A DNA stretch of 6,107 nucleotides, taken from IMG/VR virus record IMGVR_UViG_2537561992_000040; one strand, 5' to 3'. The DNA comes from a virus. Taxonomy: Duplodnaviria; Heunggongvirae; Uroviricota; Caudoviricetes. A program made the position numbers and the translations under genes. The notes under the pieces were generated by a model. The model worked only from the letters and a program-made list of their open reading frames with translations, searched no databases and had not been told where the DNA came from. Shown piece after piece: positions 413 through 3,404 of this stretch. The number at the start of each line of letters is the position of its first letter. Within the stretch, counting starts at the first letter, position 1.

Positions 413-483
413 AACATTTCAGCTGATGACCACCACGCTTTTTATTGACCATTTTGCACGCAAACTGGAAAACCTGGCGTCGT

Positions 484-497
484 CATCTATTCTTAAA
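484..497 (+). promoter_or_regulatory. Sigma-S-type -10 element for the SdsR-like sRNA
   Basis: TCTATTCTTAA at 486-496 matches the extended sigma-S -10 pattern (T/C at -14/-13, TATACT-like hexamer, TAA downstream). The predicted start about 7 nt downstream coincides with the GCAAGG 5' end at 500. No convincing -35, as is common for sigma-S promoters. Confidence 0.5.
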
Positions 498-499
498 GG

Positions 500-602
500 G
501 CAAGGCAACTAAGCCTGCATTAATGCCAACTTTTAGCGCACGGCTCTCTCCCAAGAGCCATTTCCCTGGACCGAATACAGGAATCGTATTCGGTCTTTTT
601 TT
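500..602 (+). ncRNA. sdsR: SdsR (RyeB)-like small RNA, about 103 nt
   Basis: Sits between yebY and the prophage junction. 5' end GCAAGGCAACUAAGCCUGCAUUAAUGCC... matches what I recall of SdsR. 3' hairpin CCGAATAC(571-578)/GTATTCGG(586-593) is followed by UCUUUUUUU (594-602). The sigma-S -10 upstream fits the known RpoS dependence of SdsR. Confidence 0.65.
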
Positions 603-668
603 AATTGTATTTAAAATCAATTAGTTGCAAACGTCTCCCCGAAATTACTCGAAATTTACTCGAATTTC
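584..668. other. Candidate prophage attL (core in sRNA 3' end, IHF site, arm-type repeats)
   Basis: Layout parallels lambda attL (bacterial DNA, core, H' IHF site, P' arm sites, int). Candidate core is the sdsR terminator 3' half (586-602). AAATCAATTAGTTG at 615-627 matches the IHF consensus WATCAANNNNTTR. Tandem direct repeats GAAATTACTC / GAAATTTACTC lie at 641-661. The int stop is at 694-696, with int reading toward the site. Confidence 0.45.
641..668. repeat. Tandem direct repeats GAAAT(T)TACTC x2 plus a partial third (GAATTTC); putative integrase arm-type sites
   Basis: 641-650 GAAATTACTC, 651-661 GAAATTTACTC, 662-668 GAATTTC. Position between the candidate core and the int 3' end matches lambda P' arm-site placement. 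Confidence 0.45.
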
Positions 669-2056: not shown

Positions 2057-2162
2057 TGCCATACCTCTTACGATATGACCGCCAGTAAATATACAGAATA
2101 CTGGCGGGTGTGGTTGATTTTTAATAATCAGCTATGAAGTTCTAATTTGTATATAATGCAAC

Positions 2163-2351
2163 TCACGAGGACAGAAGTTTCTCGCAATTAAAATTTATCA
2201 GCTTTACTTTCTGCTCTCTGGACACGCCTGCTTCTTTTTTCCCTGAGAGCATTTTTTCGCATTCTGATTTCGTTAATTTAGATTTTGAATATCTTGTCCA
2301 GTTAGTAGGAGTGCCACCTTCTTTTTCAATAGTGGCAGTTATTTTATACAT
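2163..2351 (-). CDS. Small hypothetical protein, YdaC-like by position (62 aa)
   Basis: Internal ATG at 2351 is preceded by GGAGGT at about 5 nt spacing and overlaps the ralR stop (ATG at 2349-2351, TAA at 2344-2346), suggesting translational coupling. Occupies the position of ydaC between xis and ralR in Rac. The 86-aa form in the ORF track (start 2423) would overlap ralR by 80 nt and is less likely. Confidence 0.5.
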   Translation of the reverse strand: MYKITATIEKEGGTPTNWTRYSKSKLTKSECEKMLSGKKEAGVSREQKVKLINFNCEKLLSS

Positions 2352-2538
2352 GAACACCTCCATTATTATTTCCAGTAGTTCGTTTATTCCATCTTTCGAG
2401 TGCTTCTTTTTCACTTCCACCATAGCCAGTTCGGGATTCGCATCCGTTGCATTTTGCCCGGTAATATCCTGAAATTGCTTTCACTGTAACAGATGGACAA
2501 CCACAAAACGGACATGGTTTAACATCGTCATATCTCAT
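2344..2538 (-). CDS. ralR: RalR/Lar-like restriction-alleviation protein and type I toxin (64 aa)
   Basis: MRYDDVKPCPFCGCPSVTVKAISGYYRAKCNGCESRTGYGGSEKEALERWNKRTTGNNNGGVHV has a CxxC...CxxC zinc-ribbon-like pattern, and matches the length and sequence I recall for Rac RalR (Lar). Lies immediately downstream of recT as in Rac. In-frame ATGs at 2550 and 2577 are alternative starts; none has a strong SD. Confidence 0.75.
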   Translation of the reverse strand: MRYDDVKPCPFCGCPSVTVKAISGYYRAKCNGCESRTGYGGSEKEALERWNKRTTGNNNGGVHV

Positions 2539-2594
2539 AATTTTTGTCATAAAAACTGTCTCACGTTGGCGGTGCATTACACCGCCAGGCTGAA

Positions 2595-3404
2595 TTATTC
2601 TTCTGAATTATCGATTACACTGTATTCCCCGGTTAATACAGAGGAGTCTGCCGGATCGATTGTCAGTGGTTCCTTTTCATCCATTGATACTGCACGCTGG
2701 ATTTCAATTGAGACAGGCAGGTATTTAAACAGGCGACGAATAGCCGTTTTTTTTGCCATTTCTTCCCAGTGAGTTACCCATGGCCCGTTATTACCAGCCT
2801 TACTCTGGCTGCGCACCAGTTCAATCTGTTTGCGCGTCATAACTTCAAACTGAGTCCCTCCGTCTTTCAGTCTTGCGACAGCATAGACGTGGGTCACTGG
2901 TGCATCTTCGTTTTCTCCCGGGCGGTGTATTAACTTTTCATCAAGGCCAAATTCAAAACTAAACTCGTCACCTTCACGGACAACACGGGCTGACAGGCTG
3001 GCGATTTGACCAGAACGGCGAGCCAGATCAATCATGCCGCGATAACCAATGATTAGCTGAACGTTCTTTTTACCGCTCTTTTCGTTTTTATTACCAAAAG
3101 GCAGTAAATATGCGTGGCCGAGGGCGCTACCTGGCTCAAGGCCGAGCTGTGAACACTGAACGATCGCACTGACAAAACTCATGGTGTCACAGTTTCCTAG
3201 CGCCGGAACCTTACGAATTTCTGTGGTGGCGATACGTATCATTCGTTCAGCCGTCATATGGCGTGGGAGAGCTGCTGCCAGTTGCTCTTTCATTGATGGC
3301 TGATTAATAAAGCTGATCACGTCGTTATTTTTTACTGCTGCTGGTGCACGGTTTCCCTGGGTTTTTTGCAGATCGGCTTTTGCGATAGGTGGTTGCTTAG
3401 TCAT
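2595..3404 (-). CDS. recT: RecT single-strand annealing protein, 269 aa
   Basis: From [16 protein letters not shown]... the ORF matches RecT of the Rac prophage in length and sequence as I recall it. SD AAGGAG sits 7 nt before the ATG at 3404. The start overlaps the recE stop by 8 nt (ATGACTAA), the known recE-recT arrangement. The track's 288-aa start lies inside recE and is rejected. Confidence 0.9.

What the first reader, a model, noticed from the sequence alone, without database searches (positions are those of the whole stretch)
2150..2350. Candidate antisense small RNA opposite the ydaC-like/ralR pair (possible RalA-type antitoxin)
On the + strand there is a consensus TATAAT at 2152-2157, preceded by an AT-rich tract and a near-extended TG at 2148-2149 but no clear -35. 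Transcription would start at about 2164, exactly at the ydaC-like stop. A weak hairpin follows (TGCCAC 2312-2317 / GTGGCA 2332-2337) with a U-rich tail TTATTTTAT at 2339-2346, next to the ralR stop. That defines a roughly 180-nt antisense transcript. RalR in Rac is a DNase toxin of a type I TA pair whose antitoxin is a small RNA (RalA, about 180 nt, recalled). I do not remember the exact position of ralA relative to ralR, so this placement is an inference.
Basis: inference. Interest (0 to 1): 0.55.

Follow-up and report, generated by a model that had tools for sequence, protein, structure and literature searches.

The report
RalA antitoxin small RNA, already known
The flagged stretch is the known small RNA RalA, the antitoxin of the RalR DNase toxin of Rac-type prophages.

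Summary
Window 2167-2345 (+) matches Rfam RF02694 (RalA, "RalR antitoxin") over the whole 179-nt model: 219.2 bits against a gathering score of 170, E 3.6e-53. It aligns without gaps, 171 of 179 identical, to the ralA gene (b4714) annotated in K-12 MG1655.

The layout is the same as in K-12. RalA lies antisense inside the ydaC/rcbA-type DUF1187 ORF (2163-2351, -) and overlaps the ralR stop codon (2344-2346) by 2 nt. The elements that were tested in K-12 are present. The 16-nt repeat is at RalA 63-78 (2229-2244) and its 11-nt core TGCTTCTTTTT is intact. The ralR target site (2401-2416) is identical. The terminator hairpin and U-run are there too.

Taken alone they are not above chance, and the mapped K-12 5' end corresponds to 2167, not 2164.

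The window is 100% identical over 1700-2900 to O26/O103-type E. coli chromosomes, whose records annotate the DUF1187 and ralR genes but no ralA. That is an annotation gap, not a discovery.

This haplotype has minor differences from K-12: a consensus -10, a weakened 5' stem-loop, one pair fewer in the seed duplex, and a second 11-nt complement in the terminator loop.

The parts
2152..2157 (+). Probable -10 hexamer of the ralA promoter. It reads TATAAT here and TACAAT in K-12. There is no recognisable -35.
   Evidence: Sequence and alignment to K-12. Both hexamer variants occur in related loci. The consensus scan does not call it, and the hexamer alone is at chance level. Assignment as a promoter is inferred from its position 10-15 nt upstream of the position corresponding to the K-12 mapped 5' end.
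2167..2345 (+). RalA small RNA, 179 nt, the type I antitoxin of RalR.
   Evidence: Rfam RF02694 at 219.2 bits (gathering score 170), E 3.6e-53, model 1-179. 171 of 179 nt identical, without gaps, to K-12 ralA b4714.
2229..2244 (+). The '16-nt repeat' of RalA (RNA positions 63-78), which is the seed that pairs with ralR mRNA. The 11-nt perfect core TGCTTCTTTTT is at 2229-2239.
   Evidence: 13 of 16 nt identical to the repeat copy in ralR, against 14 of 16 in K-12, with the core intact. T63 and G64, whose mutation weakens antitoxin activity in K-12 (PMC4041452), are present. The predicted local duplex is -17.3 kcal/mol, against -19.8 in K-12.
2312..2345 (+). Intrinsic-terminator-like 3' end of RalA. 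A 6-bp stem (UGCCAC/GUGGCA) with a 14-nt loop is followed by GUUAUUUU.
   Evidence: Rfam consensus helix 146-151/166-171. It folds at -9.8 kcal/mol, z -2.0, against -7.8 for K-12. The A171 change turns the K-12 U.G pair into U-A. The terminator was only predicted in K-12, never mapped (PMC4041452).
2318..2328 (+). A second 11-nt word (CTTCTTTTTCA, RalA 152-162) in the terminator loop that is complementary to the same ralR mRNA site. It is created by the C156T change and is absent from K-12. Its function is unknown.
   Evidence: Predicted unpaired probability is 0.94. The predicted duplex is -14.3 kcal/mol, against -10.3 in K-12.
2344..2538 (-). ralR, the 64-aa toxin gene (a non-specific endodeoxyribonuclease in K-12).
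   Evidence: NCBIfam equivalog NF007260 at 165.9 bits (cut-off 113), and Pfam Lar_restr_allev. 63 of 64 aa identical to K-12 RalR. Annotated as ralR in identical O26 records.
2401..2416 (-). Target site in the ralR coding region, the other copy of the 16-nt repeat. The mRNA reads AAGUGAAAAAGAAGCA.
   Evidence: The site is invariant in all 86 related loci examined.
2163..2351 (-). DUF1187 (ydaC/rcbA-type) ORF of 62 aa that RalA lies antisense to. Its start overlaps the ralR stop (ATGTATAA).
   Evidence: Pfam PF06688 at 129.5 bits. Annotated as a CDS in identical genomes. 19 of 31 variable sites fall on its third codon positions.

Best explanation
Window 2167-2345 (+) is the orthologue of ralA, the RNA antitoxin of the RalR/RalA type I toxin-antitoxin pair, carried by a Rac-like prophage.

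Shown here:
- It has full-length sequence and structure homology to the RalA family.
- It is in the same place, on the same strand and with the same overlaps as in K-12.
- The cognate toxin gene ralR lies next to it, in convergent orientation.
- The seed (RalA 63-73) and its target in the ralR coding region are both intact.

Inferred by transfer from the K-12 experiments of Guo et al. 2014:
- The RNA is transcribed from its own weak promoter, whose -10 is at 2152-2157, and starts at about 2167.
- It ends at the weak hairpin and U-run at about 2345.
- It is bound and stabilised by Hfq.
- It pairs through the seed with the ralR mRNA at codons 41-46 (window 2401-2416).
- That pairing lowers RalR protein without much loss of mRNA, so the DNase toxin is held in check.

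RalA is also perfectly complementary to the DUF1187/rcbA-type cistron, which probably lies on the same mRNA as ralR. It is therefore a cis-antisense RNA to that gene as well. Whether this has any consequence is untested.
For: - Rfam RalA match at 219.2 bits (gathering score 170), model 1-179.
- K-12 ralA is annotated inside rcbA and overlaps ralR by 2 nt. The window aligns to it without gaps, 96% identical over 501 nt and 171 of 179 over the RNA.
- The 16-nt repeat is at RalA 63-78, which agrees with the primer-extension result that the transcript starts 62 nt upstream of the repeat (PMC4041452). The 11-nt core and T63/G64 are present.
- The ralR target is invariant in 86 loci.
- An 11-nt shared word is uncommon in shuffles, reached in 8 of 300.
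- RalR is an NCBIfam equivalog hit and 63 of 64 aa identical to K-12.
- The terminator hairpin is retained and slightly stronger than in K-12.
- The locus occurs in 1920 of 5426 complete E. coli genomes.
- K-12 experiments cover antitoxin activity, compensatory seed mutations, the Hfq requirement and Hfq binding (PMC4041452).
- RalA is detected by RNA-seq in K-12 under all eight conditions tested (PMC12266141) and rises 5.4-fold after replication inhibition (PMC11228462).
Against: - There are no expression data for this strain or haplotype.
- The promoter has no -35 and is not called by the scan.
- The terminator has a 14-nt loop, is not called either, and has never been mapped experimentally, even in K-12.
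- Folding of the whole RNA is not better than shuffles (z -1.28).
- None of the 48 Rfam pairs shows a compensatory change among 19 haplotypes.
- Sequence conservation is largely explained by the protein-coding ORF on the other strand: 19 of 31 variable sites are third codon positions.
- Two substitutions in this haplotype (A7, C36) break the K-12 5' stem-loop, which is said to stabilise the RNA.
- C75 removes one pair of the seed duplex.
- Natural variants with a 12-nt deletion of the seed still keep an intact ralR. This suggests the seed is not indispensable at native expression levels.
Confidence: 0.88

Rival explanations
1. RalA here works mainly as a cis-antisense RNA against the DUF1187/rcbA-type cistron, or against the 3' part of a ralR-DUF1187 bicistronic mRNA. 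It would pair over its full 179 nt, for example leading to RNase III processing. The short trans-type seed against ralR would then be secondary.
For: RalA lies entirely within, and is perfectly complementary to, the DUF1187 ORF at 2163-2351. The ralR stop and the DUF1187 start overlap (ATGTATAA), which suggests one transcript. The DUF1187 ORF looks genuinely protein-coding, and its protein is conserved in Citrobacter-type loci. Seed-deletion variants coexist with an intact ralR.
Against: In K-12, seed point mutations abolish antitoxin activity and matching mutations in ralR restore it (PMC4041452). That maps antitoxin action to the 16-nt repeat. ralR mRNA levels hardly change when RalA is overproduced. 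Nothing tested here addresses cis-antisense effects either way.
Confidence: 0.07
2. In this strain nothing functional is made from the + strand. The sequence would be conserved only because it encodes the DUF1187 protein on the - strand, the -10 and hairpin would be chance features, and the Rfam hit would simply reflect 95% DNA identity to K-12.
For: The motifs are at chance level. There is no covariation. Substitutions show a codon-position bias. The Rfam hits in the Citrobacter-type loci L009 and L010 are weak (35 and 29 bits), are full of non-canonical pairs and have no seed complementarity. This shows that coding conservation alone can produce RalA-like matches.
Against: The -10 is closer to consensus here than in K-12, where the RNA is demonstrably made. 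The terminator stem is strengthened, not eroded. The seed core and its target are both intact. ralR is intact and would presumably need its antitoxin.
Confidence: 0.05

Closest known systems
RalA sRNA of E. coli K-12 cryptic prophage Rac (ralA, b4714; Rfam RF02694; Guo et al. 2014, PMC4041452)
   Same: The length is the same (179 nt), as are the strand and the position: inside the ydaC/rcbA ORF on the opposite strand, with a 2-nt overlap of the ralR stop. The 11-nt seed core, the ralR target site, the long-range helix 42-56/131-145 and the terminator hairpin are all the same. Identity is 171 of 179 nt.
   Different: There are eight substitutions.
- A7 and C36 break two pairs of the 5' stem-loop.
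- C75 removes one seed pair.
- T156 creates a second 11-nt complement in the terminator loop.
- A171 strengthens the terminator stem.

The -10 is TATAAT instead of TACAAT. The overlapped DUF1187 ORF is 62 aa instead of 69. The host prophage has a different integrase and sits next to yebY and ryeA/ryeB rather than at ttcA.
Divergently or convergently encoded type I antitoxins with short seeds (IstR-1/TisB, OhsC/ShoB, OrzO/ZorO)
   Same: Each is a small RNA encoded beside, not opposite, its toxin gene, and acts through limited complementarity of 16-21 nt. RalA in addition requires Hfq (PMC4041452).
   Different: The RalR toxin is a soluble DNase rather than a small membrane peptide. The RalA seed targets the coding region late in the gene rather than the 5' UTR. 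RalA also overlaps a third, protein-coding gene.

Membership tests
RalA (Rfam RF02694) | Covariance-model score at or above the family's gathering score, over the full model | tested here: met
   219.2 bits against 170, E 3.6e-53, model 1-179, window 2167-2345 +.
RalA (Rfam RF02694) | Position: convergent with ralR, adjacent to it, and on the strand opposite the ydaC/rcbA ORF | tested here: met
   K-12 annotation, colinear alignment and ORF coordinates. RalA lies within 2163-2351 (-) and overlaps the ralR stop by 2 nt.
RalA (Rfam RF02694) | 16-nt repeat complementary to the ralR coding region, with an 11-nt contiguous core that includes T63 and G64 | tested here: met
   RalA 63-78 compared with window 2401-2416 gives 13 of 16 identical (14 of 16 in K-12). 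The core TGCTTCTTTTT is intact. The duplex is -17.3 kcal/mol.
RalA (Rfam RF02694) | Cognate toxin RalR encoded alongside | tested here: met
   NCBIfam equivalog NF007260 at 165.9 bits against a cut-off of 113. 63 of 64 aa identical to K-12 RalR.
RalA (Rfam RF02694) | 3' GC-rich stem-loop followed by a U-run (predicted Rho-independent terminator) | tested here: met
   UGCCAC, a 14-nt loop, GUGGCA, then GUUAUUUU. It folds at -9.8 kcal/mol, z -2.0. A simple terminator scan does not call it because of the long loop.
RalA (Rfam RF02694) | [quoted passage not shown] Guo et al. describe it as stabilising; it is an accessory feature rather than a defining one. | tested here: inconclusive
   Pairs 5-36 and 7-34 are mismatched in this haplotype. 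The K-12 helix (-5.5 kcal/mol) is replaced by a -3.3 kcal/mol mini-hairpin. Even the K-12 helix is not better than shuffles.
RalA (Rfam RF02694) | Structure supported by compensatory base changes | tested here: not met
   None of 48 pairs shows a change on both sides among 19 haplotypes. The available diversity is too low, at 98% mean column identity, and is constrained by the overlapping ORF. This is a lack of evidence, not evidence against.
Type I toxin-antitoxin system | The RNA is transcribed, depends on Hfq, and neutralises the toxin by pairing with its mRNA | not testable with these tools
   Shown only for the K-12 allele (PMC4041452). It is transferred here by homology.

The most novel reading that the evidence does not exclude
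In the O26/O103/O111-type haplotype RalA may have been partly rewired. It has lost the K-12 5' stem-loop and one pair of the canonical seed. Through C156T it has gained a second, fully exposed 11-nt complement (CUUCUUUUUCA, in the 14-nt terminator loop) to the same ralR mRNA site. Toxin recognition might therefore begin as a loop-presented contact rather than through the partly sequestered canonical seed. A related point is that seed-deleted natural variants with an intact ralR exist (L050, L059). This hints that the 16-nt seed is not the only determinant of neutralisation.
Probability: 0.1. Interest if true: 0.3.

Novelty: already known. Interest (0 to 1): 0.1.

Why it matters
It matters little for discovery. 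RalA/RalR was described in 2014, has an Rfam family and is annotated in K-12.

The practical point is about annotation. The O26:H11 11368 record examined here shows no ralA feature. Across the RefSeq E. coli records listed in the searches, only DUF1187/rcbA and ralR appear under the matching stretch. The locus is present in about 35% of complete E. coli genomes, so ralA probably goes unannotated in most of them.

The region is also a compact example of three overlapping functions: the end of a toxin gene, a small protein gene, and an antitoxin RNA on the opposite strand. My codon-position analysis suggests the ydaC/DUF1187 ORF is truly protein-coding. That qualifies the original paper's statement that it is not.

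Tried and rejected
- The promoter/terminator consensus scan of 1900-2700 called neither the ralA promoter nor its terminator. Motif evidence alone would not have supported the finding.
- Whole-RNA folding stability against shuffles was not significant on either strand.
- A first RalA/ralR-mRNA duplex script timed out. The rerun over full-length RNAs gave meaningless whole-length duplexes no better than shuffles. I replaced it with shared-word and local-duplex analyses.
- I looked for covariation support for the Rfam structure among 19 haplotypes and found none.
- I looked for distant RalA homologues through RalR-encoding loci in one genome per species. Only two diverged loci turned up: Citrobacter braakii L009 and the MAG L010. 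Their RalA hits are weak and below threshold, are explained by the conserved DUF1187 coding sequence, and have no seed complementarity. I therefore do not count them as RalA.
- A literature search for RalA in RIL-seq data found nothing, and a search for RalA in EHEC sRNA work returned one paper that lists ralA only in an expression table. The rcbA paper (PMC3347072) is not held.

Full report
**What is in the sequence.** The window is the left end of a Rac-like prophage.
- yebY runs from 1 to 342.
- The sRNA pair SraC/RyeA and SdsR/RyeB lies at 462-606.
- On the minus strand come an integrase (694-1809), an excisionase (1775-2062), a DUF1187 ORF (2163-2351), ralR (2344-2538), recT (2595-3404) and recE.

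Positions 1700-2900 are 100% identical to chromosomes of O26:H11, O103 and related E. coli.

These are TATAAT at 2152-2157, TG at 2148-2149, no -35, the DUF1187 stop at 2163-2165, hairpin arms at 2312-2317 and 2332-2337 with a 14-nt loop, a U-rich tail (2339-2347, one base longer than stated), and the ralR stop at 2344-2346.

**Is it more than chance?** On motifs alone it is not.
- TATAAT occurs twice in the window against 2.3 expected.
- The consensus scan calls neither a promoter nor a terminator here.
- The 179-nt RNA folds no better than shuffles, z -1.28.
- Only the terminator hairpin is mildly better than shuffles, at -9.8 kcal/mol, z -2.0.

**Identification.** A scan of the whole window against Rfam gives a full-length match to RF02694, RalA ('RalR antitoxin'). 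It covers 2167-2345 on the + strand, at 219.2 bits against a gathering score of 170, E 3.6e-53.

The curated K-12 MG1655 record annotates ralA (b4714) at 1413556-1413734 (+). That lies inside rcbA/ydaC (1413531-1413740, -) and overlaps ralR (1413733-1413927, -) by 2 nt. Window 2100-2600 aligns to that K-12 stretch without a gap at 96% identity. Over the RNA, 171 of 179 positions are identical.

The geometry here is the same. RalA lies within the DUF1187 ORF on the other strand and overlaps the ralR stop by 2 nt. RalR itself is 63 of 64 aa identical to K-12 and hits the NCBIfam equivalog for the RalR toxin.

**What is known about how it works (from the literature, not tested here).** Guo et al. 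2014 (PMC4041452) reported the following for K-12.
- DNA of the ydaC region relieves RalR toxicity even when the ydaC ORF is knocked out.
- Primer extension places the 5' end 62 nt upstream of a 16-nt repeat shared with the ralR coding region.
- The 3' end was predicted, not mapped, at a 5-bp stem, 14-nt loop and U4 terminator. That gives an RNA of 179 nt.
- Mutations T63C and G64C and a 4-nt change in the repeat weaken or abolish antitoxin activity. Matching changes in ralR restore it.
- RalR protein falls, but its mRNA does not.
- Hfq is required and binds RalA.

RalA is also detected by RNA-seq in K-12 in all eight conditions tested (PMC12266141). It rises 5.4-fold after replication inhibition (PMC11228462).

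**Are the functional elements intact in the window?** Mostly yes, with some differences.
- The repeat is at RalA 63-78 (2229-2244, TGCTTCTTTTTTCCCT). Its copy in ralR is at 2401-2416 (TGCTTCTTTTTCACTT). The 11-nt core with T63 and G64 is intact.
- As RNA, K-12 forms 14 contiguous pairs: 11 Watson-Crick, one G.U and two more. The A75C change here removes one. The local duplex drops from -19.8 to -17.3 kcal/mol.
- The ralR target is identical in all 86 related loci I examined.
- The -10 is consensus here and TACAAT in K-12. Both forms occur in the population.
- A171 converts the K-12 U.G closing pair of the terminator into U-A.
- A7 and C36 each break a pair of the K-12 5' stem-loop, which no longer forms in the predicted fold.
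- C156T creates a second 11-nt word in the terminator loop, CTTCTTTTTCA at RalA 152-162. It is complementary to the same ralR site and predicted to be 94% unpaired. Its local duplex is -14.3 kcal/mol, against -10.3 in K-12. I regard this as a curiosity with a low prior of function.

**Limits of the comparative evidence.** I collected 89 RalR-encoding loci. They gave 24 distinct versions of the RalA stretch: 21 of the E. coli type at 179 nt, two with an insertion or deletion, and the diverged Citrobacter locus L009.
- None of the 48 Rfam base pairs shows a compensatory change among 19 of the 179-nt haplotypes.
- Of 31 variable sites, 19 are third codon positions of the minus-strand DUF1187 ORF.

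Sequence conservation therefore mostly reflects a protein-coding constraint. It also argues that this ORF is a real gene (Pfam DUF1187, 129.5 bits), which qualifies the original paper's conclusion that ydaC encodes no protein.

In the two diverged loci (Citrobacter braakii L009 and the MAG L010) the DUF1187 protein is conserved. The 'RalA' match is far below threshold (35 and 29 bits), is full of non-canonical pairs, and has no complementarity to ralR above chance. RalA as characterised therefore appears confined to the E. coli/Shigella Rac lineage.

**Distribution.** The 211-nt stretch 2140-2350 is found in 1920 of 5426 complete E. coli genomes. In 186 of them the match is at least 99% identical to this haplotype. 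Six phage records also match, including Rac-SA53. The O26:H11 11368 record carries no ralA feature, and the feature lists under the other matches show only DUF1187/rcbA and ralR. The curated K-12 record NC_000913.3 does annotate ralA.

**Verdict.** The feature is the already known RalA antitoxin sRNA in an allele 95.5% identical to the characterised one. The mechanism is transferred from K-12 by homology and is not shown for this allele. Interest is low.

The residual open points are:
- whether the allele-specific changes matter;
- whether RalA also acts as a cis-antisense RNA on the DUF1187/rcbA cistron;
- how natural variants with the seed deleted tolerate an intact ralR.

Noticed in passing
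window 462-606: The overlapping sRNA pair SraC/RyeA (606-462, -, 179.1 bits) and SdsR/RyeB (503-602, +, 118.1 bits) lies between yebY (1-342) and the prophage integrase (694-1809, -). This Rac-like prophage is therefore integrated right next to ryeA/ryeB, not at ttcA like K-12 Rac, and its integrase has a different length (371 aa against 411 aa).
   Followed up: partly
L050 and L059 (IMG/VR), region equivalent to window 2224-2235: A 12-nt in-frame deletion removes RalA positions ~58-69, including most of the 11-nt seed core. ralR in the same loci is intact (98% identical, residues 1-64). Either the seed is dispensable at native expression levels or these prophages tolerate an unneutralised ralR.
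   Followed up: partly
window 2163-2351 (-): The DUF1187 (ydaC/rcbA-type) ORF shows a strong third-codon-position bias in its polymorphisms (19 of 31). Its protein is conserved in Citrobacter-type loci where the RalA features are not. It therefore looks protein-coding, unlike the conclusion of the 2014 RalA paper. Here it is 62 aa, because a TGA at 2163-2165 replaces the AGA codon of K-12, where the protein is 69 aa.
   Followed up: partly
window 2318-2328 (+): The terminator loop of this RalA allele carries a second 11-nt complement to the ralR target site. It is created by a single synonymous change (C156T) and is absent from K-12.
   Followed up: partly
window 2569-2587 and 2607-2636: Between recT and ralR there is a perfect 7-bp inverted repeat (GGCGGTG CATTA CACCGCC). 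On the minus strand there is also a promoter-like site (TTAACC-18-GATAAT, 2636-2607) inside the 3' end of recT. These may be the recT terminator and the ralR promoter.
   Followed up: no
L041 (IMG/VR), equivalent to window ~2252: A 2-nt insertion (TT) in the T-run of RalA frameshifts the DUF1187 ORF but leaves the RalA seed and terminator intact.
   Followed up: no
H66, PP818812.1 positions 331-541: A record named Actinobacillus phage vB_Apl-pPE4 carries this E. coli Rac-type ralA/DUF1187 stretch at 91.9% identity. That is an unexpected host attribution for this sequence.
   Followed up: no
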